64,000 nt of DNA from Candidatus Micrarchaeota archaeon (GCA_027046625.1 JALTXX010000004.1:1698-65697), one strand, 5' to 3'. Shown: positions 18,585-64,000, counted from the stretch's first letter. Program-made: numbers and translations. Notes: generated by a model from the sequence alone, not told the origin.

Positions 18585-18860
18585 GTATGGCGGGCTGCGG
18601 CGGGTGGACCTACACTCCCTACCCCGCCCCGAAGGGAGTATCTCTGGATGAGGGGAGCCGACCCGATGGACACCGGCTACGGTTGCTCCCTTTCGGGCCT
18701 GGCCGGGTTCACCGGCGCGCCACCGTCCGGCTCCTACCCATCCCTCATGGTACCCCCTTCGGGGGAAGGTAGAGAGCATAGGCCGCCCCGCCGCTTCGGC
18801 CCCGGCGTAAGCGGATTTCCGGTTACAGGGGACCGCTGGCCCCCCGGCCTGCCCGCCACT
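18585..18860 (-). ncRNA. ffs: Signal recognition particle RNA (7S/SRP RNA)
   Basis: About 275-nt GC-rich block in a lower-GC genome. The minus strand contains CCAGGCCCGAAAGGGAGCAACCGUAGCC (helix-8 AGGCCCG-GNRA-GGGAGCA core). Terminal helix GGCGGGC...GCCCGCC pairs the 5' and 3' ends. Confidence 0.7.
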
Positions 18861-45326: not shown

Positions 45327-45458
45327 TGGGGCCGCGGGGATTTGAACCCCGGACCTTCGGGTCTCCCCCTATTTAGACCCGAAGCTCTTCATCGGCTGTC
45401 CTCCGCGCTCCAGACAAACGTCTGGAGCCCGACGCGCTGCCAACTGCGCCACGGCCCC
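45327..45458 (-). tRNA. tRNA-Trp (anticodon CCA) with an approximately 59-nt intron
   Basis: Exons: GGGGCCGTGGCGCAGTTGGCAGCGCGTCGGGCTCCAG...ACCCGAAGGTCCGGGGTTCAAATCCCCGCGGCCCC. Intron segment GUCUGGAGCGCG is complementary to the anticodon arm (bulge-helix-bulge context). Confidence 0.8.
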
Positions 45459-52241: not shown

Positions 52242-52606
52242 AAGGCCAAGCGTACACACTGTTCAACTACCTCGCATGGGCTGCCTTTTTTGTAGCTGCA
52301 ATAGGGGTTGTGTACATCGTATTCAACAACTCCATAAGACAGGCAACTCCTGTTCCCATCGAAACGATAAACGATGTCCTCCGCAGCGCGGCAGAGCAAA
52401 GAAAGGTAGGTATAGACACCCCTGTATGTGCAGATCTCTACGTTAGCGGTGAAATAACCATTACTAAGGATATTGTGGGAAGATATGGTCTAAATTTGGA
52501 CCTAAAGTGTGAAAACGTAACTTGCAGAGAAGAGGAGGATGGTATAACCATATGGGGCAGTGGGAGATTATGTGTAGAAGGTGGAGTTCTCGTGTGGAAG
52601 CGTTAA
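52238..52606 (+). CDS. Pilin-like protein with class III signal peptide
   Basis: MKG|QAYTLFNYLAWAAFFVAAIGVVYIVF. The ATG overlaps the flaJ-like stop (ATGA). Confidence 0.55.
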   Translation: MKGQAYTLFNYLAWAAFFVAAIGVVYIVFNNSIRQATPVPIETINDVLRSAAEQRKVGIDTPVCADLYVSGEITITKDIVGRYGLNLDLKCENVTCREEEDGITIWGSGRLCVEGGVLVWKR

Positions 52607-52636
52607 TATTTTATATCTCCATCATCTAATAGTGGC

Positions 52637-53050
52637 ATGAAGGGCCAAGCCTTTGAGGTATTCAGGCTTCTCATTGCAGCAGTAATTGGGGGGGCTATCC
52701 TTATGGTATTGTTAGGCATACTTCAGGGCATCATATCACCTACTACAGATCCTCAAACTGCCACAGCCCAGCTTGTAAAGAAAAACTCCAAGTTTGGTGG
52801 TATAGGAACCACAGACGTGATAACTTTCAGAAAGGACATGTACATAGATCTGAGAGCAGTCGCAAGGGAGGCATACCTTGACACGGAATGTGTAAAAGTT
52901 GGAGATGTATTAGAGGGTTTTGAAAAAAAAGATGATAAAGTAATAAGATACGCAGGGACCGGTACAAGGGCAAAGATAATGGTGGAATGCACCGAAAGTG
53001 AAAATAAAAAATGTCCCATCGAGTGTACGGTTTCCATCATCCGTCCTTAA
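52637..53050 (+). CDS. Pilin-like protein with class III signal peptide
   Basis: MKG|QAFEVFRLLIAAVIGGAILMVLLGIL (Glu at +4, as in type IV pilins). Confidence 0.6.
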   Translation: MKGQAFEVFRLLIAAVIGGAILMVLLGILQGIISPTTDPQTATAQLVKKNSKFGGIGTTDVITFRKDMYIDLRAVAREAYLDTECVKVGDVLEGFEKKDDKVIRYAGTGTRAKIMVECTESENKKCPIECTVSIIRP

Positions 53051-53190
53051 AAGGGATGAACGTTTAATATTAGCATGAGAGCAGGTGGAGACTGGAATGT
53101 TATATACCTCCTTGTGGTAGCTATTGTGGCAGCCCTGCTTATTTTCGGGGTGATAAAGCCATCCATGGCTAAAGGGTACAGGGTGGTCAA

Positions 53191-53694
53191 ATGAGGGGTG
53201 TGGAGGCACCCTTCCAATTGGTAGTATCTGTTGTAACCATCCTGTTTGTGCTATACCTTTCCTACATGGTTATATCCAATGCCATACGGGAGGATTGTTC
53301 CAAGAAGATAGATATCCAGCTTAGGAACATTGCAACCACCGTTTCCACAGCTGTGTATTCATCTCCTCCCACTAAACTCATGGAAAGGTTCGACTTTAGG
53401 TGTGGGGGGATGGTAGGGGACTACTATGTTAGTGTTAAGGGTTCTTCCAACGAAACCGAATGTCTTAGAGTGTGCGGATATTCATATAGTGGGCAATGTG
53501 TATATCTTATCCTTGAGGTAAGGAGGGGAGAGGAGGTTCTAAATAGATCCTATGCCTGTATAGAGGGAGCGGTACCCTCCCACAACATAACAATAAATGG
53601 CGGTAAAGATAAAGTAAAGGTGTCTCCACCCTATGGGAGTGTAGAAATAGAAAAAACAGAGGATGGGATTACCTTGCGGTGGAACAGAAGGTGA
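53191..53694 (+). CDS. Pilin-like protein (class III-like signal)
   Basis: MRG|VEAPFQLVVSVVTILFVLYLSYMV, 167 aa. Confidence 0.5.
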   Translation: MRGVEAPFQLVVSVVTILFVLYLSYMVISNAIREDCSKKIDIQLRNIATTVSTAVYSSPPTKLMERFDFRCGGMVGDYYVSVKGSSNETECLRVCGYSYSGQCVYLILEVRRGEEVLNRSYACIEGAVPSHNITINGGKDKVKVSPPYGSVEIEKTEDGITLRWNRR

Positions 53695-53698
53695 AAGA

Positions 53699-54181
53699 AT
53701 GTTAGATTACATACTCTCAAGGCTGATGCTCCTTATATTTCTTCTCCTCATTGTGGGTACCATTGTTTCTTACAAAGACTTCCTTGGGGATATGTTTGCC
53801 TCTGCAGGAGCCAAATCCTTGGTGCTAAAGGTAGGAGAGAAGATTAGAAGCATTGCTCTAAGCCTTACTGTTACCAGCGCTGAGGAAGCCATCAGATTGC
53901 CGTCCTATATAAGATCTGGGCCTGTAAGGCTGGATTACAATATGGTATTTGGGTGTAACGGTAGTGAACTAGGCATAGGAGTAAAATCCACCAGAGGAAA
54001 CCTTCTATACTTCAAAACATGGAACCTAAAACCCTCTGATAGAGGCATAAAGATCCGGATTCCAAAAAACGACGTAGAGGCGGGGGATATTCTTTATATT
54101 AAGAAATCTTCCACCCTAAGTGAGGTAACCCTCACCATAAAGCCAAGGAATGGGGAAGTGAGAACATGCCAAGCCTCATAG
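53699..54181 (+). CDS. Small N-terminally anchored protein (possible minor pilin)
   Basis: MLDYILSRLMLLIFLLLIVGTIVSY, then a beta-rich body. Start taken at an internal Met. Confidence 0.4.
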   Translation: MLDYILSRLMLLIFLLLIVGTIVSYKDFLGDMFASAGAKSLVLKVGEKIRSIALSLTVTSAEEAIRLPSYIRSGPVRLDYNMVFGCNGSELGIGVKSTRGNLLYFKTWNLKPSDRGIKIRIPKNDVEAGDILYIKKSSTLSEVTLTIKPRNGEVRTCQAS

Positions 54182-54543
54182 ATATGGGTGCCATTATACC
54201 CATTGTAATGGCCCTTCTACTTTTCTTCGGAACGCTAGTGTATACCATAAATACGATAGAGGAGAAAAACAAGAAAATGGAGCTACTATTTGCCCTCTTC
54301 GAGGTATCCAACATGCTAACAGAGAAGGGTGTGGTTACAGACGAATGGATTGAAAAGGTTAAGGAAACGTTAGAAAATGATGATTACGAGTTTTGTATAG
54401 AGAAGAGAGGAGAAAACACATGCGAAGCACGGTCGCCCACCTATATAAGCCTTGAGTTTCCTGTTTCCTTCCAAACAAATAAAGATGGAATTCCATTCAA
54501 TGAGATAAGAGTCCTAAAGGTGGTAGTATGGCCAAAGGTATAG
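54166..54543 (+). CDS. Small N-terminally anchored protein (possible minor pilin)
   Basis: MPSLIDMGAIIPIVMALLLFFGTLVYT, 125 aa. Confidence 0.4.
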   Translation: MPSLIDMGAIIPIVMALLLFFGTLVYTINTIEEKNKKMELLFALFEVSNMLTEKGVVTDEWIEKVKETLENDDYEFCIEKRGENTCEARSPTYISLEFPVSFQTNKDGIPFNEIRVLKVVVWPKV

Positions 54544-55046
54544 CTGCAGTGTTTGATGCGGTATTCCTCCTCATTATTGCTTCCATAGCCTCCGGCATAC
54601 TACTTTCTGTAACATACGGATATGGGTCTTCCTTTGAAAGACATGCAAAGGGTGTACTCATGAATTACTATGCTAAACAGGTGGTAAAGGCCCTTGTAAC
54701 GGCCTCTATAGAAAGAGACGGAGTTCCAGACTACCTCCTGTCCTACCTCAAGGAAAGTATAGAGGCTGGGAGAGATATGACAGAATTGGAGAATATGCTG
54801 AAAGATATTGTTACAAAGGCTATGGAGCCTGTAAGAGATAGATATGACTATGTGGTATCTCTGAAAACAGAGAATGGCAGCATATTCATCTGCAACGACA
54901 ACATTATTGAAAACGACCCCTTGGATAACTACTTCGGCCCAAGGTACAGCTCCAGTACAAAGATATACATGGATATAAAAGGAAGGTACGTTCCCATTAC
55001 CATTACGGTTACCCTCACTCCTCGAGGGATTTTAGAATGTCCATAA
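54528..55046 (+). CDS. Pilin-like protein with class III signal peptide
   Basis: MAKG|IAAVFDAVFLLIIASIASGILLSV, 172 aa. Confidence 0.5.
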   Translation: MAKGIAAVFDAVFLLIIASIASGILLSVTYGYGSSFERHAKGVLMNYYAKQVVKALVTASIERDGVPDYLLSYLKESIEAGRDMTELENMLKDIVTKAMEPVRDRYDYVVSLKTENGSIFICNDNIIENDPLDNYFGPRYSSSTKIYMDIKGRYVPITITVTLTPRGILECP

Positions 55047-55875
55047 CGTCTTCTTCCTTCTTTTCTTCCCCCTCCTCCTCAAGCAGAGATAGAAGGTCGT
55101 CTTCCTTCTTCTTTTTGGCTCCTTCCTTCCTCTCCTCCTTATTCTCTACCATAACACTCCCGAAGATTTCTGGAAATATGTCATCTGCCACCTTAGAAAT
55201 ATAATCTTCCCTTCTAGGATCCCTTCCATCCTTTATTTCATGCATAAAGAAGTCTACTATTACCTCTGCATGTTCTTTCATATAGCTTCTTACCTTCCTT
55301 CTGGACATAGCAAGCTCTTTGAAGCTTATTCTACCCTCTTCTCTCATCTTTTCCTCCACCCTCTTCATGAGCTCTCTCTCTAGATGGGAATACGCCACCT
55401 TTACCATCTTCTCTATCTCCGCCTTGGAAAGGGGTCGTTTTTTTGGAACCTCCTTCGTTTTTTCCTTCTGTTCTTCCTTCTTTTCCTTTTCCTCTTCTCT
55501 CTTTTCTTCTCTACCACTTGCCTCTTTTTCCCCCGTAGTTTCTTGCTGCTTCTCATCCTCTTTCTTTTCTCCCCCTTTCTCACCTCCGGCCTCCTTCTTT
55601 CTCTCCAAAACAACTTCCTCTCTCCTCTCCTTCTTATCCTCTACAGGAGGCAGAGACGCATACTCCCTTAGATTATTTACCACCTCCATAAACAACCTTA
55701 TCTCATCCAACTCATCTGTCTCCTTAACTTTTGCAACCCTTTCCCTCCTCTCCTGCTTCACCTTCTGGGATCCAAAGCTAAACTCTTCCACCTGAATAGC
55801 TTTGTCCTTCTTCACCTCCTTCCTAGGTTCCTTCTTACCTCTCCCAAAGAGGGATAGCAAACGCTGCAGCATCAT
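55015..55875 (-). CDS. E/K-rich low-complexity protein (hypothetical)
   Basis: 286 aa with a long KE/EK repeat core and ordered termini. Convergent 32-nt overlap with the last pilin-like gene. Confidence 0.45.
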   Translation of the reverse strand: MMLQRLLSLFGRGKKEPRKEVKKDKAIQVEEFSFGSQKVKQERRERVAKVKETDELDEIRLFMEVVNNLREYASLPPVEDKKERREEVVLERKKEAGGEKGGEKKEDEKQQETTGEKEASGREEKREEEKEKKEEQKEKTKEVPKKRPLSKAEIEKMVKVAYSHLERELMKRVEEKMREEGRISFKELAMSRRKVRSYMKEHAEVIVDFFMHEIKDGRDPRREDYISKVADDIFPEIFGSVMVENKEERKEGAKKKKEDDLLSLLEEEGEEKKEEDVMDILKSLEE

Positions 55876-55906: not shown

Positions 55907-56305
55907 ATGGATCTCCTTTCACCCATCATTCCATCCATTATCCTTGGAACCATCTTCTATATTTTCAAAAACCATACACCATACCTTATTCCTATAGCAA
56001 TCTCAATAATCTGGTTCTTCTATATCATATACGGATTTGGAGCGTGTCCTTTGCCGCCGCCCCATATAGAACTAACATGCAATTTTGATATAAGCATACT
56101 TTATGGGGCGGCGGCATCCTCAGCAGCAGTGGGCATCATCTCTTTTGTGTTTACAGCCGTGGGCGTGGGGATTTTTAGGTGGATAAAGGTGAAGAACCTG
56201 TGGGTAAGATATGTGGTGAGCACTTATATTACACTTCTACTCTTACAGTTATGGGTGGTGGTGTTTCCATGGACCATAGAACTCTTGTATGGATTCTTCT
56301 CATAG
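55907..56305 (+). CDS. Small polytopic membrane protein (hypothetical)
   Basis: 132 aa with four hydrophobic helices, immediately upstream of the giant surface protein. Confidence 0.35.
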   Translation: MDLLSPIIPSIILGTIFYIFKNHTPYLIPIAISIIWFFYIIYGFGACPLPPPHIELTCNFDISILYGAAASSAAVGIISFVFTAVGVGIFRWIKVKNLWVRYVVSTYITLLLLQLWVVVFPWTIELLYGFFS

Positions 56306-59300
56306 GAAGCATGGCCTACGGAAACATAATGTGTGAAGTGGTAGAGGATGGAGATATTTCAAAGCTCATAATCAACACTGTATACAGAGAGGACGGTATA
56401 CATCCCTTCTCCTCCATTACTACAAATTCCCAGGAGGGAGAACAGATAGATGTGGATTCCATGGTATTGGTAGATGGTGAGGGAAGGGCATATGATGTGG
56501 AAGTGGGCAAGGAGGCAGCCCCCGTGGAGAATACCATCCTGGGAGGAAGTTACTATGAGGGCCCCTTTGTGGTGACCTATCTTCTTTCTGACACCCTTCG
56601 CATCGCGAAGGTCGGTGTCCACTCCTACGGAGAGGGTGCCCTTCTTAGGGAGCGTTTTGAAGGCACTTATGGGATATCCCTCTATGAAACACTAAAAAAC
56701 ATCGCAAAGAACATCAAGGAGTTCGTATTCTTTGTGAATGAACAAACACCTCCCATAAATAACGTTATAAACGCCGAGAACTTTTCTGCAAGTGTTGTAT
56801 GTGCATCATCTTCCTGTAAAAAAGAGCTGTACTCATTGCTTACTAAGTATATGAATCTGGGGGCGTCCTCCGAGATGGCCGTGGAGTTTCTAAACTTTAA
56901 GTTTGTGATAGGTCCTGCAAAGAGGGCAGCTGAAGGTGCATTAGCCTTAGGGAAGATTTCAGTTCCCGAATCCAAGTTTGTAGAAGGGTTGAAGAACAAG
57001 CTTAGAGCTCTGAACTTTTTTGGGAGAAAACAGTTAGAGGAGGCAAAAAACCTGTTCAAGGGACTATCTGACGGTGAGAAAGAGGCCATAAAAGGTATTT
57101 TAGATTCGCCTTCTGAATGGTACGCGCACACCGGAAAGCTTTCCCTTCAAGGAAAGACAGCAGCCTACATATTTACAAAGGAGCTCAAGAACGTAAAGTT
57201 CGAGAAGCTTATCGTAGAGGAGGGAGGAAAGAAGTACCTACTTGTAAACAAATTGGAGGAAGCTATAAAGAATATGGAGGAGTTCGGAAAGAAGGTAGGC
57301 GATATACAGAGTTTGACGGGATCTGAAAGACTAAAGGAGATGAAGCAGCTGGCAGATAGTGTAAAGAAAACGCTTGAACAGATAAAAAACAATGTAAAAA
57401 ATAAGAATATAGAAAAAATACCGTTAAAGGAGCTTGCAAGCCAGCTCAAAGGAAAGGTAAAACTAGAGGATCTAGAGAAGATAAAACAACTGAGAGAAAT
57501 GCTGGATGACTACAGCAGCATTGTAAGAAACTTGGAAGACAAGGTACCCCTTGTTCTATCTCAAGCGGATCTCATAGGCGATGAGATGGAGAGGATGCTA
57601 TCAAAAGAATCTGGGAGCAGAACAGGCAGGGCTCTTGTTGCCAAGGGCGTTGCCACACCCCTTATGTTCTATCTTACAAGAACCACCCCCCTCCCCCCTG
57701 ATGTCACCTTTGAGGGTATTAACTCTAACCTCTCAAAAATCTTTCCCGTAAAGAGGGCGTACCAGATACCAAGCAGCTGGACTACCATGGATTTGAAACC
57801 TTCTAACATGGAAGGGGTATTTATGGATGTCCTCATAGGGCATGGAAGCGATCCTGGAAACATATTTAGGAGCATCCTTACCATCTTACCAATAGGGCTC
57901 ATCGACAGGGTTATAACGAGTGTTACAGGCTCTAATCCCCTCGATATTGTAGATATGATACCCGATCCTGAGGATGAAGAACTATACAGGATGAAAGATG
58001 CTGTGGTAATGCTGGCAACCACCAACAACTGCCAAACATGTTACATAGAGGACGGGAAAAGCTTCTCAGGTCCAAAGCTCTTCCTCTCTCTAACAGAGAA
58101 CCAGAGAGAAAAATCTACCCTTATAACCTTCTTTAGAAGGATGGACCTTATCGCAGATGGAAAGAGGCTCATTGATACGAGTAACAGCGAAAACTTATGC
58201 TCCCAGAAATGTTTTCTTGTAAGAAATATGACAGAGGCCTCCGGCAAGGAACCATTTGCTGCCCTTTTCTTGCACGGATTACTCATAGGATATGTGGTAC
58301 CGTCCTTTGGCGGTTTAACGCTCACCCTTATCATATCTGCGGCTACCTCTCCCGTCTTTGCAGATTGTTTCACATGCACAGATACCACATTTGGATACTA
58401 TCTTCATGTATTGAGTTTCTCGCCTCCCAAAGAAGAGGAACCCATGCCTGTAGACAAGGTAAAGGCCGCGGTAGAACAATTGGGTGTAGATATTAAGCAG
58501 GTTGAGGAGTGGATTTCCAGTTACAAGAAAGGGGAAATAGAGAAGCAAAGATCTATGTTGTATTCCACACTCACCAACGCCAAAGGTAAGATGGAGGGAC
58601 TTGTTATCAGTATATGGACAAAACCGTCCTTTTCTATGCCCACAAGATTCAAAGGTGGGGTAGAACTCTCCACAGAGGATGGAGAAAAGCTTCGTATCGA
58701 TGAAACCACGGTAACATCCAAGGATGGTTCTGTTACAGCTCCCGGGGCCGGCATATCAACGGTAGAAACGGAAATACCAGGTATGATCGTGCCTACAAAC
58801 CTCTCCCGAGTAAATCTATCCTCTATTTCCCTGGAGGTAACATCCCAGGAGAATTATATTATTGGGGAGGCGCTTCAGCAGTGTTTAAGCGTTGAGCCTG
58901 GTAGAATAAAGCTCGTAAAAGCAGAAAAGGGAAGTATAAAGGTAGAAGAGGATGGTTTGTACGTTACAAGTGATGATTATGTAGGGCCTGCAAGCAAGAT
59001 AACAGTGGAGAATGGAATTGTTAGGGCAACAGTAACTGACATAACACCAGAAGGAATAACACAGAAGGACATAGAGCTCGGAAAGCTTATTTCAATAGTA
59101 TTTGAGAGGGTATCTGTTGTTTCAAAGGGTGACAGTGCCTATGTATGGAACAAAGGCGACTCCGTTCCCCAAGAAAGTGTGGAAGATGCTGATTTGGAAA
59201 CAGATGGAGAAAGCGTCTCCCTCAGTATAACTCCATCTTCAGATGCAACGAGGGAGGAGGTAAAGACCATAGATAAGGGAGAGGAGATGTTAGATGATAT

Positions 59301-59832
59301 TCAGGCTATCGATGCATCAAAAACCACCGTAGCAATAAGGGAAGGAAAGGACGGAGAACAGTACTTAACTATCTACAACAAGGAAGATGGTTCTGTTACC
59401 AACGAGAAGATTGTGGACATGAAATCCGAAAATGGAGAGCTCGTTGTTACAACCGTGGATGAGAAAGGTAATGAAAAAGTACACAGAATAAGACTTGAAG
59501 TAACATCGGATGGTACACCTACCCTCAAGGTGGACGGAAAGGATGGAGGTATTGTCAAGACAGTTCAGTCCAAGGAGGGCTTCATGTGGTACAACCCAAA
59601 AACGGGTGAGTGGAATTTTGTAAATGGTGTACTTGCACCCCTGTCTGAGGCATTTAAGGAAGGTATGAAGATCGCCTTTGAAGGAGGTAAGGCGGTGGCA
59701 AAACCATCAGGCAACATCATTGTAAATGCTCCGCCCTCTCAGGGCATGTCTCTCCCATCCCTTGGAGAGTGGATACTGCCCCTACTAGCAATAGTTATCC
59801 TACTAATGCTCTATCAAGGATCACGACAGTGA
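56269..59832 (+). CDS. Large secreted surface protein (about 1187 aa) with C-terminal transmembrane anchor. Possible adhesin or S-layer-like
   Basis: Signal-peptide-like MDHRTLVWILLIGSMAYG|N, a long T/V/E/K/G-rich beta-type body, and C-terminal SLGEWILPLLAIVILLMLYQGSRQ. The ORF-track start at 56179 is probably an upstream extension. Confidence 0.65.
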   Translation: MDHRTLVWILLIGSMAYGNIMCEVVEDGDISKLIINTVYREDGIHPFSSITTNSQEGEQIDVDSMVLVDGEGRAYDVEVGKEAAPVENTILGGSYYEGPFVVTYLLSDTLRIAKVGVHSYGEGALLRERFEGTYGISLYETLKNIAKNIKEFVFFVNEQTPPINNVINAENFSASVVCASSSCKKELYSLLTKYMNLGASSEMAVEFLNFKFVIGPAKRAAEGALALGKISVPESKFVEGLKNKLRALNFFGRKQLEEAKNLFKGLSDGEKEAIKGILDSPSEWYAHTGKLSLQGKTAAYIFTKELKNVKFEKLIVEEGGKKYLLVNKLEEAIKNMEEFGKKVGDIQSLTGSERLKEMKQLADSVKKTLEQIKNNVKNKNIEKIPLKELASQLKGKVKLEDLEKIKQLREMLDDYSSIVRNLEDKVPLVLSQADLIGDEMERMLSKESGSRTGRALVAKGVATPLMFYLTRTTPLPPDVTFEGINSNLSKIFPVKRAYQIPSSWTTMDLKPSNMEGVFMDVLIGHGSDPGNIFRSILTILPIGLIDRVITSVTGSNPLDIVDMIPDPEDEELYRMKDAVVMLATTNNCQTCYIEDGKSFSGPKLFLSLTENQREKSTLITFFRRMDLIADGKRLIDTSNSENLCSQKCFLVRNMTEASGKEPFAALFLHGLLIGYVVPSFGGLTLTLIISAATSPVFADCFTCTDTTFGYYLHVLSFSPPKEEEPMPVDKVKAAVEQLGVDIKQVEEWISSYKKGEIEKQRSMLYSTLTNAKGKMEGLVISIWTKPSFSMPTRFKGGVELSTEDGEKLRIDETTVTSKDGSVTAPGAGISTVETEIPGMIVPTNLSRVNLSSISLEVTSQENYIIGEALQQCLSVEPGRIKLVKAEKGSIKVEEDGLYVTSDDYVGPASKITVENGIVRATVTDITPEGITQKDIELGKLISIVFERVSVVSKGDSAYVWNKGDSVPQESVEDADLETDGESVSLSITPSSDATREEVKTIDKGEEMLDDIQAIDASKTTVAIREGKDGEQYLTIYNKEDGSVTNEKIVDMKSENGELVVTTVDEKGNEKVHRIRLEVTSDGTPTLKVDGKDGGIVKTVQSKEGFMWYNPKTGEWNFVNGVLAPLSEAFKEGMKIAFEGGKAVAKPSGNIIVNAPPSQGMSLPSLGEWILPLLAIVILLMLYQGSRQ

Positions 59833-60181
59833 CTGCAGGTCTCTCCTCTTCTATCTCCTTCACTCGTCCGAAGGAGACAAACTTTACCTTTACCCTTGCA
59901 CGCTGTACCTCCACCTCATCTATATGATCAATATTTACCCTTGAGGGGGCTATTCTTACCTCCAACACCTCTCCCACAATACCCTCTGTGTGGGTATCCA
60001 ACTCCTCATATACATCCTCCGTAAGGAATACTCTGTCTCCCTTCTCTAGGAGAGATGCCGTTCTTACGTTCACGAAGGAGAGAAACTCTAACACTATCAC
60101 TCCTTTTCTTGTAAGCCTCTCAAGACTTTCCTTTTTTATTCCAGTAAAGGCCAGCATATTCTCACCCATACATGGACACAT
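59795..60181 (-). CDS. Hypothetical protein (about 120 aa)
   Basis: Intact ORF downstream of the PAC2-like gene with no motif. Confidence 0.35.
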   Translation of the reverse strand: MCPCMGENMLAFTGIKKESLERLTRKGVIVLEFLSFVNVRTASLLEKGDRVFLTEDVYEELDTHTEGIVGEVLEVRIAPSRVNIDHIDEVEVQRARVKVKFVSFGRVKEIEEERPAVTVVILDRALVG

Positions 60182-60806
60182 CCAAATGATCTTCCTCGGG
60201 GGGAGACAGTACGAGGTCGTCTACATCTACCTCTATACCGGTAATCCTTCCGACCTCAGAGACAAGGCGAGGAGCGGCACTGATATCCTTCCTTCCCGAT
60301 GTAGGTCCCAGCAGCAGCAATACAGGTACGTTTCTTTCTCTGCCGAGAAGGAGTAGTGAAGCTGTTACACCTGTAACCACTCCATTTTCTATGGGTCTAA
60401 GATGACCTGCAAACTTTCTGGCAGATTCATTAGATGCTATCACATAAACATCCTCCGAGGAGGGGGATAACACACCGCTTAAAACTACCACTAGCTTGGC
60501 CCCATCTTTCCATGCCTTTTCCATAATGGTATGGGCTACCTCCCAGGATAGATCCTCGGGGATGGGAACATCGGAGAGAATGGCATGTACATTGGAGCGA
60601 GAAAACACGTTTATAGGATAGTATATTCTACCCTTCTTCACCCTTCCTATGGGAGGTAGTCTACGCGAGAAGAGGTACCCTGTCCATTTGAAGCCTCCTC
60701 TTTCTACGTAATATCTTAGGGATATGTTTCCCACCAGTCCCAATCCAGGAAATGAGATGAGAAGTATGCCATCACGAAAGCTTGCTCCAGTTCTTAGCTG
60801 TACCAT
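60162..60806 (-). CDS. PAC2-family (proteasome assembly chaperone-like) protein
   Basis: N-terminal ILLISFPGLGLVGNISLRYYVE and C-terminal ASLLLLGRERNVPVLLLLGPTSG resemble PAC2/PbaB-family signatures. 214 aa. Confidence 0.55.
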   Translation of the reverse strand: MVQLRTGASFRDGILLISFPGLGLVGNISLRYYVERGGFKWTGYLFSRRLPPIGRVKKGRIYYPINVFSRSNVHAILSDVPIPEDLSWEVAHTIMEKAWKDGAKLVVVLSGVLSPSSEDVYVIASNESARKFAGHLRPIENGVVTGVTASLLLLGRERNVPVLLLLGPTSGRKDISAAPRLVSEVGRITGIEVDVDDLVLSPPEEDHLDVSMYG

Positions 60807-61552
60807 ACTATCACCATATACACACCCATAGCTACAAGGCTTCCCACAAGGATATAGACGGGTATGTTTTTAGGCTTCCTCTCCAAAGCTCCTACAAAGA
60901 AACCACTAATAGATACTAACAGAAGCAAATACACCAACACCACCTCTCCAATCGACCCTCCCATCCTCTCTACTAACTTCGTTACAAACCCTAGCACAAT
61001 GGGAACCAAAAGGAAAGAGGAAAGAAGGATGGAATATCTCTGAAGGGATAGGGTAGATAACTTTTCCCTTTCCGTCTCGCCTACCACGTAAAGCTCCTCT
61101 GAAAGGTTTTTCAGAAGTTGAGGAGCAGTACCTGCTCTAAAGGCTTCTATAATACTTGTTATAGCCCTTTCTATGAGAGAAGAATCCCATCTCTCGTATA
61201 GTGTCCTCAAAGCCCTAAGAGGTGGGATACCCTTCTCTACCATCCTCTCTACAGATTCAAGCTCCTTTGAGAGCTCTCCGAATCCTTTTCTTCCCAAGGA
61301 TATAAGCGCTTTTGGAGTAATAGAAGGGTACGTAGCTGCTGTGTGCACCCATCTGGGGAGTTCTTCCTCTATACGTTGCTTCTTCCTTTCATAGAAGTAC
61401 ACTATAGAGATAAAGGACAATATAGGAACTAGAATAGCATAAAACCCGAACAAAAGATACGTAGAAGCAGTTAGCAGTATAATTACTGCAACAACATTCC
61501 TTTCATCCCACCCAAGAGTATCCAGCATCTTCATACTACCACTTCCTAGCAA
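60794..61552 (-). CDS. TadC/TadB-like T2SS-F-domain membrane protein
   Basis: 252 aa with an N-terminal transmembrane helix, a cytoplasmic helical domain, and two C-terminal transmembrane helices. Overlaps neighbours by 13 to 17 nt. Confidence 0.6.
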   Translation of the reverse strand: MLGSGSMKMLDTLGWDERNVVAVIILLTASTYLLFGFYAILVPILSFISIVYFYERKKQRIEEELPRWVHTAATYPSITPKALISLGRKGFGELSKELESVERMVEKGIPPLRALRTLYERWDSSLIERAITSIIEAFRAGTAPQLLKNLSEELYVVGETEREKLSTLSLQRYSILLSSFLLVPIVLGFVTKLVERMGGSIGEVVLVYLLLLVSISGFFVGALERKPKNIPVYILVGSLVAMGVYMVIVWYS

Positions 61553-62300
61553 TGTATACCAACATCACCACCGTGGCCATGGGGAGCACGATATAAAGGG
61601 TAAAATAAAGTATTCTCACATCCTGGGGCGTACCAAAAACGATAGGAAGTATGTGGGTATAGATGATTAGTATAGAGGGAACAAGAGCTGTTAATGCAAT
61701 AAACATAAGCGTATAAAGTGATAGTTTAGAGCTAAATTCTCTTATCTCAAGCTTTTTAGTCATTAAAAGGGAGTCTGCGTATCTCTCGAGTGCTTCCCAC
61801 CCTGTACCTCCCTCTATCACTTCCGATAGCATTTCTAGGGTCTTTCTAACACTATCAGACGTGTATGTAGAGGCTTCTCCTTCCAAGGCCCTTTTTAGAG
61901 GCAGCCCTCCTTTATGTAGGGAGAGGATTCTCTTCATGCTGTTTTCTATGTATTTTCTTCCCTTAGATGCTATTTCCATCCCCCTTATAGGATCAATGCC
62001 AGACCTTACGAGCGTGGAAAGGGATTTTAGGAAGAAGGGAAGCTCCCACTCTGCTACTCTGCCTCTAATATGGGAAAGAAGGATGGGCAGGTAAAGGGAT
62101 ATGCTAAATATGGATAGGGACAGCATAATCGCAAGGATAGGATCTACGAACACAAGAAGGAGGGGAAGAATGGAGAGAATAAAAGCATAGCCTAGATAGT
62201 CTTCCGGTGAAATAGAAATATCTGCGTTTCTTAGGTGTCTTCCTATTCTTCTTTTCATATCCTCGCTGAAGAGTGCTCCTATTCTCCACATCTCCAACAT
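61536..62300 (-). CDS. TadB/TadC-like T2SS-F-domain membrane protein
   Basis: 254 aa with the same topology as its neighbour. This split arrangement is the bacterial Tad pattern. Confidence 0.6.
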   Translation of the reverse strand: MLEMWRIGALFSEDMKRRIGRHLRNADISISPEDYLGYAFILSILPLLLVFVDPILAIMLSLSIFSISLYLPILLSHIRGRVAEWELPFFLKSLSTLVRSGIDPIRGMEIASKGRKYIENSMKRILSLHKGGLPLKRALEGEASTYTSDSVRKTLEMLSEVIEGGTGWEALERYADSLLMTKKLEIREFSSKLSLYTLMFIALTALVPSILIIYTHILPIVFGTPQDVRILYFTLYIVLPMATVVMLVYIARKW

Positions 62301-63769
62301 GTATAACGCCTCGCAAAAGTCTCAAGATCGTAAACGGGATTGTTTTTGAGGAATGTTACTCTCTCTTCAACATCGTCAAGGGACTCATTGGATACAAGCT
62401 CTACCACCCTTCTTACAATCCTTCCACCTTCTCCCCACCTTCTTACAACCACAACCACATCTATAGAGTCGAGATCTTCCTTTCTTACGCCCATACTTAC
62501 AAGCCTCGAAAGTACCTCCTTTACGGATCTTCCATGCATGGTAGTGTAGCTGCCCCTCCCCTGACCCGCAAGAACGGTATCCATATAGGCCTCTGCCTCC
62601 TCATCCTTTCTTATCTCTCCCACAATAACCCTATCTGGTCTCATACGAAGGGTATCCCTTATAAGATCCTTCATGCTAACACCAGAAACCACCATCCTGA
62701 CAAAATGGGGGTGTGGAATGTTTATCTCCGGCACCTCCTCCACCGCAATAACCCTTTCATCTAGGGGAACAAATCCCATAAGGGCATTGAGAAGTGTTGT
62801 CTTGCCGGATCCTGTATTGCCTGCAATAAGTATATTTAGCTCCCTCTCTATGGCAGCCCATAGAGTGGCTGCCTGCCCATAGGAGATGGATCCGCTCTCT
62901 ATAAGGGAAGATATGGTTAGGGGAGATTCTCTAAACCTTCTTACTGTAATAGAATGCACATTAGAGATAGGCGGTATAACTGCATGTATACGCGAGCCGT
63001 CCTCCAATATTGCATGCATTCTAGGTTCTTTTATGCTAATAAGCCTTCCCATCTTTTCTCCTGCTCTGTTTACAAGGTTCAGGAAGTACTCCTCCGTCCA
63101 TATGTAGATGTTTGTTTCTCTCCATCCCTTTCCTCTTTCATACACCATTACCGGTCTTTTTAGACCTACCACAACAATCTCCTCTATATTGTCCCCTTTT
63201 ATAAGGTTTAGAGGCCCCAGAGGGCTTAATGTGATATCCACTATCCACTCTACCCTTTCCTTAGTCCTCTCTGGTATGGAGAGCTCCTCTGAGAGGTCAT
63301 CTAATATTTCTTCGATGGAGTATTCTCCCTTCGTTCTCTGATAAATGTCTATTACTTTCCTTGCCACCCTTGCTTCCCAGGGAAGAATAGGCATCTCACT
63401 TACAATTCCATTATCCGTCAAAACCCATCCAATTTCATTTCCCACCTCCTCCATGTCTTTTTCCTCCAAAATAACTGTTATCTCGTCTCCACCCCTCTCC
63501 TTGCATATGGGATAACCTCTTTCTACACACATATCACACTTATACAGCCCATCCCTCCAAAACAGAGCATTATATGGACATAAAACAACATCATCGGGGT
63601 TTCCACCTTCTGCGCACAGAACCCCCTTTACACACTCAAATATCCCATCACTTCTGGCACAGGGAGCTTCAGGTGGATCACAGTGGATGCATCTTATCAC
63701 TCTTTCATCATGATAGGGGCATACCCTCCTGATGATATTCTTCCCCTCTTCTGTAGCCTCTATCCTCAT
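62279..63769 (-). CDS. VirB11/TadA/FlaI-family secretion ATPase with N-terminal cysteine-rich domain
   Basis: Walker A IAGNTGSGKTT, Asp/His boxes, Walker B RVIVGEIR. The N-terminal 100 aa carry 10 Cys (CPYHDERVIRCIHCDPPEAPC...CVKGVLC...CPYN...CDMCVERGYPIC). Confidence 0.8.
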   Translation of the reverse strand: MRIEATEEGKNIIRRVCPYHDERVIRCIHCDPPEAPCARSDGIFECVKGVLCAEGGNPDDVVLCPYNALFWRDGLYKCDMCVERGYPICKERGGDEITVILEEKDMEEVGNEIGWVLTDNGIVSEMPILPWEARVARKVIDIYQRTKGEYSIEEILDDLSEELSIPERTKERVEWIVDITLSPLGPLNLIKGDNIEEIVVVGLKRPVMVYERGKGWRETNIYIWTEEYFLNLVNRAGEKMGRLISIKEPRMHAILEDGSRIHAVIPPISNVHSITVRRFRESPLTISSLIESGSISYGQAATLWAAIERELNILIAGNTGSGKTTLLNALMGFVPLDERVIAVEEVPEINIPHPHFVRMVVSGVSMKDLIRDTLRMRPDRVIVGEIRKDEEAEAYMDTVLAGQGRGSYTTMHGRSVKEVLSRLVSMGVRKEDLDSIDVVVVVRRWGEGGRIVRRVVELVSNESLDDVEERVTFLKNNPVYDLETFARRYTCWRCGE

Positions 63770-64000
63770 TGGATGGCCACCTCGTCCCCCACCTCAACAG
63801 GACATTCTCTTCTTCCATCCATCTCTATGATAATATCACCCTCAAGAGTTACTACACTCCATGGCTCTACCACCCTTTTACATGTAACTTTTCCCTCCTT
63901 CACACAAAGAAATAGGATGGGGAACCTGCAGAAAAACGTATGAAATGAGGTTTTTCCCTTTGTTGGAAATAGGAGACATCCGTCATAGGAGAATCTAAAC
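63766..64000 (-). CDS. Partial CDS (C-terminal 77 aa of an upstream gene in the Tad-like operon)
   Basis: Manual translation gives ...EGKVTCKRVVEPWSVVTLEGDIIIEMDGRRECPVEVGDEVAIQ* with its TGA overlapping the ATG of the ATPase gene (ATGA). No stop before the window edge. Confidence 0.4.
   Translation of the reverse strand, partial: FRFSYDGCLLFPTKGKTSFHTFFCRFPILFLCVKEGKVTCKRVVEPWSVVTLEGDIIIEMDGRRECPVEVGDEVAIQ

What the first reader, a model, noticed from the sequence alone, without database searches (positions are those of the whole stretch)
60794..64000. Bacterial-style Tad-like module in an archaeal context, with a 10-cysteine N-terminal domain on the ATPase
Two separate TadB/TadC-like membrane proteins of about 250 aa sit beside a VirB11/TadA-type ATPase. 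Archaea normally carry a single fused FlaJ-like platform instead. The ATPase begins with a roughly 100-aa domain holding 10 Cys in ferredoxin-like or zinc-ribbon-like spacing (C-x8-C-x2-C-x7-C ... C-x5-C ... C-x13-C-x2-C-x7-C). A metal-binding or redox-sensing N-domain on a secretion ATPase is unusual. A partial gene upstream is translationally coupled to the ATPase (ATGA overlap) and continues beyond the window.
Basis: partly seen in the sequence, partly recalled or inferred. Interest (0 to 1): 0.65.

Follow-up and report, generated by a model that had tools for sequence, protein, structure and literature searches.

The report
Pilus motor ATPase with iron-sulfur domain
A tiny-celled (DPANN) archaeon carries a pilus-type motor whose ATPase begins with a worn-down ferredoxin domain that still keeps the cysteines for two of four ancestral iron-sulfur clusters. 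This fusion is rare and I found no paper describing it, and it may link pilus assembly to the cell's redox state.

Summary
On the minus strand there is an overlapping gene string: DUF192 (cut by the window end), a 496-aa T2SSE ATPase, two ~250-aa T2SSF platform genes, PAC2 and DUF473. The ATPase starts with 10 Cys in 89 residues (P about 5e-11).

Split platforms are already known in archaeal Epd-like pili, from which bacterial Tad systems derive. This ATPase belongs to a DPANN-specific clade (100% bootstrap), not to bacterial Tad. Orthologous Micrarchaeota modules have the platform fused.

The Cys-rich region is not a zinc ribbon. It is a degenerate DmsB/NrfC/HycB-type four-cluster ferredoxin domain:
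- Relatives carry 16, 12, 10 or 8 Cys.
- Profile-profile homology is 99.4% (E 1e-21).
- Across 61 relatives, cysteines are lost as complete four-ligand sets.

The window protein keeps exactly two complete sets. From recalled NarH and FdnH structures, these are the two central clusters.

The domain sits where CpaF has its variable NTD0, so it is most likely a redox or iron-sulfur-dependent regulatory or structural module. About 30 clusters (50% identity) among 1.8 billion representatives carry the fusion, and I found no paper on it.

DUF192 also follows tadZABC in 11 of 80 fetched loci, all bacterial.

The parts
63766..64000 (-). 3' part (77 codons + stop) of a 108-aa DUF192 (PF02643) gene. Its stop overlaps the ATPase start (ATGA). 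The full gene would start about 92 nt past the window end.
   Evidence: reading frame and overlap. (identical longer contigs L001/L002 give the whole gene). (PF02643, 32 bits against a cutoff of 27). A DUF192 gene lies upstream of and near the ATPase in 11 of the 13 DPANN loci examined, and directly adjacent in most. None was called in L007 or in the P0061 locus.
62279..63769 (-). 496-aa secretion/pilus-type hexameric ATPase (T2SSE superfamily). Layout: Fe-S domain, 3-helix motif, NTD2, then CTD with Walker A GNTGSGKTT, Walker B/Glu and His box.
   Evidence: PF00437, 1.9e-34. (invariant G317, S321-G322-K323-T324, E385, H412). (PDB sequence hits: afGspE 156 bits, CpaF 142, FlaI 128). (AF2 pLDDT 91.7). 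(Foldseek: afGspE, CpaF and FlaI at E 1e-27 to 1e-24).
63470..63769 (-). N-terminal Cys-rich domain (about aa 1-100). It is a degenerate DmsB/NrfC/HycB-type ferredoxin domain that keeps two complete Cys4 ligand sets: C78, C81, C89 + C17 and C27, C30, C37 + C64. C46 and C52 are extra.
   Evidence: alignment series of 16, 12, 10 and 8 Cys. (these 8 Cys invariant or at least 90% conserved in 34 sequences). (hhalign 99.4%, E 1.2e-21 against 16-Cys relatives). (family profile hits MvhB, HycB, NrfC, FdnH, NarH). (Foldseek best hit HycB3, 7qv7_A, prob 0.90). (all-or-none ligand sets in 61 sequences).
61536..62300 (-). 254-aa single-domain T2SSF platform protein. It corresponds to the N-half of the fused platform in orthologous modules. 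It overlaps the ATPase 3' end by 22 nt.
   Evidence: PF00482, 5.6e-10. (aligns to aa 14-239 of the 580-aa fused L010 platform, E 4e-14).
60794..61534 (-). 246-aa single-domain T2SSF platform protein (252 aa if the TTG at 61552 is used). It corresponds to the C-half of the fused platform and is a paralogue of the preceding gene.
   Evidence: PF00482, 1.8e-6. (aligns to aa 323-560 of L010, E 5e-26). (24% identity to gene 1, E 5e-5). (gene call of 246 aa).
60162..60806 (-). 214-aa PAC2-family protein, overlapping the platform gene by 13 nt. It lies downstream of the platform gene(s) in most DPANN loci. Whether it belongs to the machine functionally is unproven.
   Evidence: PF09754, 3.3e-25. (a PAC2 gene downstream of the platform genes in 10 of the 13 loci, several kb away in L008). 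None was called in L007 or in the P0061 locus.
59795..60181 (-). DUF473 protein (124-128 aa), last gene of the overlapping string. Present in the closer relatives only.
   Evidence: PF04322, 2.5e-21..

Best explanation
This is the DPANN-archaeal version of a Tad/Epd-like type IV filament motor. Its parts are a small cytoplasmic DUF192 protein, a hexameric T2SSE ATPase, and a membrane platform split into two single-domain T2SSF proteins. All are encoded in one overlapping gene string that continues into PAC2 and DUF473.

The ATPase carries a discrete N-terminal module in front of a conserved 'LGW' motif, in the position of CpaF's variable NTD0. This module descends from a DmsB/NrfC/HycB-type four-[4Fe-4S] ferredoxin. 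In the window's lineage it has lost two whole clusters. It retains complete ligand sets for two: C17 + C78/C81/C89, and C27/C30/C37 + C64. By recalled analogy with NarH and FdnH, these are the two central clusters of the ancestral wire.

Shown here:
- gene identities and conserved synteny;
- homology of the Cys domain to four-cluster ferredoxins;
- all-or-none loss of ligand sets;
- intact ATPase motifs.

Inferred:
- The two sites still bind [4Fe-4S] clusters.
- With both terminal clusters gone, the domain no longer relays electrons. It acts instead as a cluster-dependent structural or regulatory cap, sensing redox state, O2 or Fe-S status, and tunes hexamer activity and hence filament assembly.
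- Pilins and the prepilin peptidase are supplied in trans, for example from the canonical type IV pilus locus 8 kb away in the same window.
For: Gene identities.

Conserved module: a T2SSE ATPase followed by platform gene(s) in all 13 DPANN loci spanning 33-100% ATPase identity. A DUF192 gene lies upstream nearby in 11 of the 13 and a PAC2 gene downstream in 10 of the 13.

Ferredoxin origin:
- Relatives at 35-45% identity carry Pfam Fer4 domains, including PF13247.
- The N-domain profile hits solved polyferredoxin MvhB (2e-26), HycB, NrfC, EbdB, FdnH and NarH.
- hhalign of the 8-10-Cys group against the 16-Cys group gives 99.4%, E 1.2e-21, over the whole domain.
- The family hallmarks C-x-H-C and K-C-D-x-C are kept in the window protein.
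- The AF2 N-domain model has pLDDT 94.4, and its best PDB fold match is HycB3.

Real cluster ligation:
- The 8 retained Cys are invariant or at least 90% conserved in 34 sequences.
- In 61 N-domains the four ligand sets are almost always 4/4 or 0/4: set A 31 vs 24, B 57 vs 0, C 53 vs 2, D 46 vs 11.
- Whole-set losses recur in differing combinations in P0057, P0144, P0138, P0108 and P0149, which suggests separate loss events.
- Outside the domain these proteins are almost Cys-free.

Stepwise reduction: the 12-Cys plus 8/10-Cys proteins form a clade (98% bootstrap), and the 8/10-Cys proteins form a clade (100%).

NTD0 position:
- Non-Fe-S relatives start at or just before the LGW motif.
- CpaF's NTD0 is variable and has been proposed as regulatory (PMC11300603).

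ATPase competence: Walker A, Walker B and His-box residues are invariant.
Against: - No metal or cofactor can be shown from sequence.
- The window's own N-domain matches no Pfam or NCBIfam model. Its Foldseek match to HycB3 is weak (E 0.13, TM 0.51).
- I could not read model coordinates to check the Cys geometry.
- The 'central clusters' assignment rests on my recollection of the NarH and FdnH structures. One search supports only the layout of two domains with two clusters each.
- No pilin, prepilin peptidase or TadZ/FlaH-like gene is adjacent, so a filament-assembly role is inferred from homology alone.
- The deep placement relative to Tad and FlaI is unresolved (25% bootstrap).
- PAC2 and DUF473 may be neighbours only through conserved synteny.
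- The regulatory role of the Fe-S domain is speculation.
Confidence: 0.6

Rival explanations
1. The two remaining Cys4 sites no longer hold Fe-S clusters. They bind Zn, or form disulfides, and act as purely structural knuckles. On this view the domain is a fossil that only stabilises the N-terminus or a protein-protein contact.
For: The window protein and its 8-10-Cys relatives fail every Fer4 Pfam model. Both presumed terminal clusters are gone, so electron relay is unlikely. T2SS/T4P ATPases such as GspE and PilB are known to use a structural tetracysteine Zn site (my own knowledge, not tested here).
Against: The retained ligands keep the ferredoxin cross-motif pattern: CxxCx6-7C plus a distant Cys-Pro from the other motif. 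They do not form two CxxC knuckles. Both Cys-Pro dipeptides are conserved. The all-or-none behaviour of the sets matches cubane ligation across the family. The predicted fold still matches HycB3 over 118 columns.
Confidence: 0.2
2. The Fe-S domain is a working electron-transfer wire. It couples the motor to a redox partner, for example by receiving electrons from ferredoxin or hydrogenase, or by passing them to the filament.
For: The ancestral 16-Cys forms have all four ligand sets of a DmsB/HycB-type wire. JGI annotates them as hydrogenase component 2-like.
Against: In the window's lineage both presumed end clusters, which exchange electrons with partners, have been lost. Other lineages lose different clusters. 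No redox enzyme is conserved in the neighbourhood. No T2SSE ATPase is known to need electrons (my own knowledge).
Confidence: 0.07
3. One reading: a bacterial Tad module acquired by an archaeon, which explains the split TadB/TadC.
For: The core ATPase is 31-36% identical to bacterial CpaF/TadA proteins. NCBI names relatives 'CpaF family' or 'TadA'. DUF192 also occurs in bacterial tad operons.
Against: The DPANN clade (Fe-S and non-Fe-S members) is monophyletic at 100% and separate from bacterial Tad at 98%. The module sits in conserved archaeal synteny (UppS/GGR or HAD upstream, PAC2 downstream) across Iainarchaeota-like and Micrarchaeota genomes. Micrarchaeota orthologues have a fused platform. 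The literature places the direction of transfer from archaea to bacteria (PMC6668835).
Confidence: 0.05
4. The two platform genes are an assembly or sequencing artefact: one frameshifted flaJ-like gene.
For: The two genes abut, with a 1-nt gap or a 17-nt overlap in different frames. They are collinear with the halves of a fused orthologue.
Against: The same split, with similar sizes, is seen in ten separate loci down to 35% ATPase identity.
Confidence: 0.01

Closest known systems
CpaF/TadA, motor ATPase of the bacterial Tad (type IVc) pilus (PDB 8rkd, 8rjf, 9e24)
   Same: T2SSE fold with a 3-helix NTD1, NTD2 and CTD. 142-bit sequence match and Foldseek E about 4e-26. Works with two single-domain T2SSF platform proteins. 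A variable N-terminal extension (NTD0) precedes the 3-helix motif (PMC11300603). DUF192 genes accompany some tad operons.
   Different: CpaF's NTD0 is disordered and Cys-free, whereas here it is a folded Fe-S-type domain. The window ATPase lies in a separate DPANN clade and scores below the TadA-family NCBIfam cutoff (174 against 373). There is no adjacent TadZ, Flp pilin, TadV or secretin.
Epd (EppA-dependent) pili of Methanococcus maripaludis and other archaeal T4P loci with two tadC-like genes
   Same: An archaeal system with the platform split into two single-T2SSF genes beside the ATPase. This is the archaeal relative of Tad (PMC6668835; PMC4858521).
   Different: Epd loci carry pilins and FlaH-like or other accessory genes. 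None is adjacent here. No Fe-S domain is described on EpdL or any archaeal T4P ATPase in the papers searched. I did not compare sequences with EpdJ, EpdK or EpdL directly.
Archaeoglobus fulgidus GspE2 (PDB 2oap) and Sulfolobus FlaI (PDB 4ii7, 4ihq)
   Same: Best (afGspE, 156 bits) and third-best (FlaI, 128 bits) solved sequence relatives. Same two-domain ATPase core.
   Different: They form their own clade (98% bootstrap). Neither has an Fe-S domain. The FlaI NCBIfam score is 181 against a cutoff of 550, and there are no archaellum genes nearby.
DmsB/NrfC/HybA/HycB-type four-cluster ferredoxin subunits (Pfam PF13247 Fer4_11; PDB 7qv7 HycB, 2vpw NrfC, 1kqf FdnH, 1q16 NarH)
   Same: Source of the N-domain. 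Relatives have the four Cys groups, with the C-x-H-C...C-x3-C-P and K-C-D-x-C signatures. The window domain is homologous by profile-profile comparison and by fold.
   Different: These are electron-transfer subunits of oxidoreductases. Here the domain is fused to a motor ATPase, and in the window only two of four ligand sets survive.
ABCE1/RLI (from my own knowledge; not tested here)
   Same: An archaeal and eukaryotic ATPase with an N-terminal ferredoxin-like domain holding two [4Fe-4S] clusters. The domain has a structural or mechanical role rather than a redox-catalytic one. It is a precedent for how an Fe-S cap on an NTPase can work.
   Different: It has an unrelated ATPase fold (ABC) and an unrelated process (ribosome recycling). 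There is no homology claim.

Membership tests
T2SSE / PilT-VirB11-like secretion ATPase superfamily (PF00437) | Pfam domain above gathering score; Walker A, Walker B/catalytic Glu and His box present | tested here: met
   119 bits against a cutoff of 24.9. GNTGSGKTT, E385 and H412 are invariant across 34 relatives. Fold matches to afGspE, CpaF, FlaI and VirB11.
Bacterial TadA/CpaF family | Scores above the family model cutoff and groups with bacterial Tad ATPases | tested here: not met
   TIGR03819 scores 173.7 bits against a cutoff of 373. In the NJ tree, bacterial Tad/CpaF is a separate clade (98%) from the DPANN clade (100%).
Tad/Epd-like type IV filament system | Platform encoded as two adjacent single-T2SSF genes next to the ATPase | tested here: met
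   Collinear with the halves of a fused orthologue. The split is conserved in 10 loci.
Tad/Epd-like type IV filament system | Short Flp-like pilins, a prepilin peptidase and a TadZ/FlaH-type second ATPase in the locus | tested here: not met
   None of these lies in 59795..64000 or just upstream on L001. Small ORFs after the platform genes in L007 and L008 are not pilin-like. A ParA/MinD-like gene lies about 3.4 kb upstream, outside the window. Pilins exist in a separate locus at 52202..55046.
Archaellum motor FlaI/ArlI | Equivalog score and neighbouring arl/fla genes | tested here: not met
   NF058587 scores 181 bits against a cutoff of 550. FlaI groups with afGspE away from this clade. There are no archaellin or Arl accessory genes nearby.
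DmsB/NrfC/HycB-type four-cluster ferredoxin (PF13247 and related Fer4 models) | Four Cys groups giving four complete [4Fe-4S] ligand sets | tested here: not met
   The window has only sets B and C (A0 B4 C4 D0). Thirty-one of 61 relatives have all four.
DmsB/NrfC/HycB-type four-cluster ferredoxin (PF13247 and related Fer4 models) | Detectable homology to the family (model hit or profile-profile) | tested here: met
   There is no direct Pfam hit for the window domain. However, hhalign gives 99.4%, E 1.2e-21, to the 16-Cys relatives, which hit PF13247 and PF00037 and the solved HycB, NrfC, FdnH and NarH. The C-x-H-C and K-C-D-x-C signatures are kept.
[4Fe-4S]-binding protein | Actual cluster occupancy | not testable with these tools
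   Needs metal analysis and spectroscopy.
DUF192 (PF02643) | Pfam domain above gathering score | tested here: met
   The full-length gene from the identical contig L001 scores 32 bits against a cutoff of 27. Only its last 77 codons lie in the window.

The most novel reading that the evidence does not exclude
DPANN archaea of the Iainarchaeota/Micrarchaeota group gate a Tad/Epd-like surface-filament motor through an Fe-S sensor domain fused to the ATPase. Pilus extension or retraction, and so attachment to a host or surface, would respond directly to redox state, oxygen or Fe-S supply. This would be the first redox-gated type IV filament motor. In addition, DUF192 would be a previously unrecognised, cross-domain cytoplasmic accessory subunit of Tad-type motors.
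Probability: 0.25. Interest if true: 0.75.

Novelty: new variant of a known kind. Interest (0 to 1): 0.55.

Why it matters
Type IV filament motors are known to be controlled through N-terminal add-ons, such as c-di-GMP-binding MshEN domains and CpaF's NTD0. An iron-sulfur module in that position has not been described in any paper I could find.

DPANN archaea are thought to depend on cell-cell contact, so a redox- or Fe-S-dependent switch on an attachment machine would be a concrete, testable regulatory link.

The family also offers a clean natural series (16, 12, 10 and 8 Cys) showing how a four-cluster ferredoxin decays by whole clusters. That series is useful for annotating degenerate Fe-S domains that Pfam models miss.

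The recurring DUF192 partner gives a functional lead for a widespread family of unknown function.

Tried and rejected
1. Pfam and NCBIfam on the isolated N-domain gave no hit. Homology had to be shown through relatives.
It returned generic T2SSE loci (31-39% identity, N-domain never matched) and not the orthologues, so it gave no taxonomy for the source organism. It was still useful for the DUF192 survey and for tree references.
3. BLASTP of the two platform proteins against the window's own 673-aa FlaJ-like protein showed no significant similarity. They belong to different systems.
5. A PDB sequence search with DUF192 found nothing.
6. PADLOC defence models gave only trivial P-loop hits.
7. 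Cluster-member look-ups gave no organism names.
9. I looked for Flp-like pilins after the platform genes in L007 and L008. Those ORFs are a basic protein and a plain membrane protein.
10. The C-terminal CWRC in the window ATPase is not conserved, so I dismissed it as part of the feature.
11. Literature searches for Fe-S or ferredoxin fusions to T4P, CpaF or FlaI ATPases found nothing relevant.

Full report
WHAT IS THERE. On the minus strand of 59795..64000 lies one string of overlapping genes:
- the 3' end of an ORF that runs off the window (63766..64000);
- a 496-aa ATPase (62279..63769; PF00437 T2SSE, E 1.9e-34);
- a 254-aa T2SSF protein (61536..62300; PF00482, 5.6e-10);
- a second T2SSF protein (60794..61534 from ATG, or ..61552 from TTG; PF00482, 1.8e-6);
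- a PAC2-family protein (60162..60806);
- a DUF473 protein (59795..60181).

The junctions are an ATGA overlap, then overlaps of 22 nt, 1 nt gap (or 17 nt overlap), 13 nt and 20 nt. This pattern suggests a single transcription unit.

The window is archaeal. It contains an archaeal SRP RNA, and the nearest named homologues of the ATPase come from 'Candidatus Diapherotrites' (Iainarchaeota) and Micrarchaeota MAGs.

Two longer public contigs that carry the identical ATPase (L001, L002) extend the locus. They show that the cut upstream ORF is a 108-aa DUF192 protein (PF02643, 32 bits against a cutoff of 27). A divergently transcribed HAD hydrolase lies only 5 nt away from it.

THE CYSTEINES. The ATPase starts with 10 Cys in its first 89 residues, at positions 17, 27, 30, 37, 46, 52, 64, 78, 81 and 89. 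Long ORFs of the window contain 0.52% Cys, so this is not chance (binomial P = 5e-11). The other 407 residues hold two Cys, in a non-conserved C-terminal CWRC.

WHAT THE CYS DOMAIN IS. The isolated domain hits no Pfam or NCBIfam model, but its relatives explain it. Full-length homologues at 35-45% identity carry Fer4 Pfam domains (PF00037, PF12837, PF12838, PF13247) in front of T2SSE. JGI annotates some of them as 'CpaF family ATPase / Fe-S-cluster-containing hydrogenase component 2'.

Aligned N-termini form a series:
- Proteins with 16-18 Cys have four canonical groups: G1 CxxCxxCxxxCP, G2 CxHCx4-6CxxxC, G3 CxxCxxCxxxCP, G4 KCDLCxnCxxxC(P).
- Proteins with 12 Cys lack G1 a-c and G4 d.
- The window protein and its closest relatives (8 or 10 Cys) additionally lack G3 a-c and G2 d.

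The C-x-H-C and K-C-D-x-C signatures are typical of the DmsB/NrfC/HycB class, and both survive in the window protein (C27-I-H-C30; K77-C78-D-M-C81).

Four results establish the homology:
- A profile of the N-domains hits solved polyferredoxin MvhB (2e-26), HycB, NrfC, ethylbenzene dehydrogenase beta, FdnH and NarH.
- A profile-profile comparison of the N-domains alone (8-10-Cys group against 16-Cys group) gives 99.4% probability, E 1.2e-21, over 116 columns.
- The AF2 model of residues 1-115 is confident (pLDDT 94.4).
- Its best PDB fold match is HycB3 of the hydrogen-dependent CO2 reductase (7qv7_A; prob 0.90, TM 0.51, 118 columns). That match is weak (E 0.13).

DO THE REMAINING CYS STILL FORM CLUSTER SITES? 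In ferredoxin-type proteins each cubane is held by three Cys of one motif plus the fourth Cys of the partner motif. I scored the 16 canonical positions in 61 N-domains. The four ligand sets behave almost all-or-none:

| Set | Ligands | Complete (4/4) | Empty (0/4) |
|---|---|---|---|
| A | G1abc + G4d | 31 | 24 |
| B | G4abc + G1d | 57 | 0 |
| C | G2abc + G3d | 53 | 2 |
| D | G3abc + G2d | 46 | 11 |

Most of the few partial cases are truncated gene calls. Whole sets are also missing in differing combinations elsewhere in the family: P0057 lost D, P0144 lost C, P0138 lost A and C, P0108 lost A, and P0149 lost A and D. I read these differing combinations as separate loss events, although I did not place those five proteins on the tree.

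The window protein scores A0 B4 C4 D0. Its eight ligands (C17, C27, C30, C37, C64, C78, C81, C89) are exactly the Cys that are invariant or at least 90% conserved across 34 aligned family members. C46 and C52 occur only in the 10-Cys subgroup.

This pattern is what selection on real cubane sites would produce, and it is hard to explain otherwise. It is still indirect: no tool here can show metal occupancy, and I could not read model coordinates.

From my recollection of the NarGHI and Fdn-N structures, the cluster order along the wire is A-B-C-D. On that basis the window keeps the two central clusters and has lost both ends. (PMC8301774) confirms only that NarH has two domains with two clusters each.

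THE ATPASE AND ITS PLACE.
- All catalytic motifs are intact and invariant.
- The full-length AF2 model is confident (pLDDT 91.7). It shows the Fe-S domain, a linker helix ending in the conserved G114-W115, three helices (130-181), a beta-rich NTD2 and the CTD.
- CpaF has the same layout: NTD0, a 3-helix NTD1, NTD2 and CTD. Its NTD0 is variable, dispensable for extension, and has been proposed to modulate the active site (PMC11300603).
- Non-Fe-S relatives begin at or shortly before the LGW motif. The Fe-S domain is therefore a discrete module in the NTD0 position.
- By sequence and by fold, the solved relatives afGspE, CpaF and FlaI are nearly equidistant. Neither the FlaI nor the TadA NCBIfam cutoff is reached.

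I built an NJ tree of 266 core columns with 100 bootstraps. It gives these clades:
- a DPANN clade containing both Fe-S and non-Fe-S proteins (100%);
- bacterial Tad/CpaF (98%);
- FlaI plus afGspE (98%);
- 12-Cys plus 8/10-Cys proteins (98%);
- 8/10-Cys proteins (100%).

The relations among the big clades are unresolved (25%). In this simple NJ tree, 16-Cys and Cys-free proteins interleave within the DPANN clade. That suggests the domain is old in the clade and was lost several times, but I did not test this rigorously.

THE PLATFORM. The two membrane proteins are paralogues (24% identity, E 5e-5). In two orthologous Micrarchaeota modules the platform is a single protein of 550-580 aa. The window's first gene aligns to residues 14-239 of that protein (E 4e-14), and the second aligns to residues 323-560 (E 5e-26).

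The split form is found in ten loci: the window, L003 to L009, L092 and the P0061 locus. L092 and the P0061 locus have no Fe-S domain on the ATPase. The split is therefore real and tracks lineage rather than the Fe-S domain. It is a fission, or the fused form is a fusion, within a DPANN module.

Split platforms in archaea are already documented: Epd-like pili, 'two tadC-like genes' in many euryarchaeal loci, and the proposal that bacterial Tad derives from such archaeal systems (PMC6668835; PMC4858521). Hence 'bacterial-style' is not the right reading. I did not test whether the DPANN fission is the same event as the Tad/Epd fission.

CONSERVED NEIGHBOURHOOD. Thirteen DPANN loci spanning 33-100% ATPase identity all have the ATPase followed by the platform gene(s). 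A DUF192 gene lies upstream nearby in 11 of them, and a PAC2 gene lies downstream in 10 of them, several kb away in L008. The exceptions are L007 and the P0061 locus, which show neither, and L005, whose 107-aa upstream ORF has no Pfam hit on record but was matched by my DUF192 HMM. HAD or UppS/GGR genes often lie upstream. In the Iainarchaeota-like genomes a convergent surface protein of 1200-1500 aa often lies downstream.

No pilin, prepilin peptidase or TadZ/FlaH-like gene is adjacent. A ParA/MinD-like gene lies about 3.4 kb upstream, outside the window.

The same window holds a separate, canonical archaeal T4P locus at 47966..55046. It has a 756-aa ATPase, a fused 673-aa platform and at least five ORFs with MKGQA/MRGVEA class-III signal peptides. 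That locus could supply pilins in trans, but this is speculation.

DUF192. An HMM built from nine DPANN DUF192 proteins also found ORFs in 11 of the 80 loci fetched, all of them bacterial. In most of them the ORF sits about 2 kb downstream of the ATPase on the same strand. Pfam scans of two of these loci (Clostridiales L041 and Terriglobales L079) confirm the order TadZ-like, T2SSE, T2SSF, T2SSF, DUF192.

Neither the bacterial nor the DPANN copies have an obvious signal peptide. One 2025 paper notes a DUF192 gene at the end of the tad operon of Bulleidia and a few relatives (PMC12786226). I found no broader statement. DUF192 thus looks like a recurrent cytoplasmic accessory of Tad-type motors in both domains. 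This supports calling the DPANN module 'Tad/Epd-like' in function.

HOW IT PROBABLY WORKS. The motor logic is inferred from homology. The hexameric ATPase docks under a heterodimeric platform and drives insertion, and perhaps extraction, of pilin-like subunits. DUF192 is a small cytoplasmic partner, translationally coupled to the ATPase.

The Fe-S module sits where other motors carry regulatory extensions. In the window lineage it keeps two Cys4 sites but not the terminal ones. I therefore favour a cluster-dependent structural or regulatory cap, sensitive to redox state, O2 or Fe-S supply, over an electron wire. ABCE1 is a precedent for an Fe-S cap on an NTPase that has a mechanical rather than a redox role (my own knowledge). 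A Zn-binding or purely structural fossil cannot be excluded.

HOW RARE, HOW NEW. A profile search of 1.84 billion 50%-identity representatives found 6088 T2SSE relatives at E<=1e-30. Among the best 150, only about 30 clusters also cover the N-domain.

Six full-text searches and two key reviews turned up no description of an Fe-S or ferredoxin domain on a T4P, Tad or archaellum ATPase. Automated annotations do recognise the canonical fusions. They do not recognise the degenerate form in this window.

I rate this a new variant of a known kind. The module type is known. The Fe-S NTD0 and its stepwise decay are not described, and their function is open.

LIMITS.
- The trees are simple NJ trees.
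- The taxonomy of the source organism is inferred from the names of homologues.
- The 'central clusters' statement is from memory.
- Cluster binding and any regulatory role are untested.

Noticed in passing
window 47966..55046 (+): A second, canonical archaeal type IV pilus locus. It has a 756-aa T2SSE ATPase (47966..50236), a fused two-domain 673-aa T2SSF platform (50220..52241) and at least five small ORFs with class-III signal peptides (MKGQAY..., MKGQAF..., MRGVEAPF...). None of the pilin-like ORFs hits Pfam.
   Followed up: partly
window 56179..59832 (+): A 1217-aa protein with no Pfam domain, a hydrophobic N-terminal stretch and a C-terminal membrane anchor. It is convergent on the module. 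A homologue (26% identity end to end, E 7e-59) sits in the same position in L003, and similarly large no-Pfam proteins sit there in L004-L007 and L009. It may be an S-layer or surface protein; any link to the motor is unknown.
   Followed up: partly
L041 7056..7421, L079 7040..7435, and 9 further loci fetched: In two bacterial loci checked with Pfam, a DUF192 gene lies directly after tadZ-tadA-tadB-tadC (Clostridiales, Terriglobales). The other nine HMM hits lie in loci titled Bacillota, Firmicutes, Bacilli, Clostridiaceae, Pelotomaculum, Acidobacteriaceae, Alcaligenaceae, Solirubrobacterales and one uncultured bacterium. That makes 11 of 80 fetched loci. The copies show no obvious signal peptide. 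The link has only anecdotal mention in the literature (PMC12786226).
   Followed up: partly
window 60162..60806 (-) and relatives: A PAC2-family gene (proteasome-assembly-chaperone-like) lies downstream of the platform gene(s) in 10 of the 13 DPANN loci examined, in both Fe-S and non-Fe-S lineages. In the window it overlaps the platform gene by 13 nt. This could be functional coupling or just deep synteny.
   Followed up: no
window 45327..45458 (-): Rfam finds a tRNA spanning 132 nt that ARAGORN did not report. It is probably an intron-containing archaeal tRNA. An archaeal SRP RNA lies at 18587..18859 (-).
   Followed up: no
window 62279..62300 (ATPase residues 491-494): The window's ATPase ends in C-W-R-C. 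This CxxC is absent from all 33 aligned relatives.
   Followed up: yes
L004 428..5038: In one 12-Cys relative the module is preceded by SufB/SufD/SufC Fe-S assembly genes and two CbiA/ParA-type ATPases, one of them fused to Fer4 domains. This may be coincidental synteny.
   Followed up: no
L009 1158..6564: In a 16-Cys relative, a complete second pilus gene set lies immediately upstream of DUF192 and the Fe-S ATPase. It comprises a prepilin peptidase (Peptidase_A24/Arc_PepC_II), an 802-aa T2SSE and two T2SSF genes.
   Followed up: no
window 55015..55875 (-): A 286-aa, extremely Glu/Lys-rich ORF lies between the pilin cluster and the large surface protein. It was not analysed.
   Followed up: no
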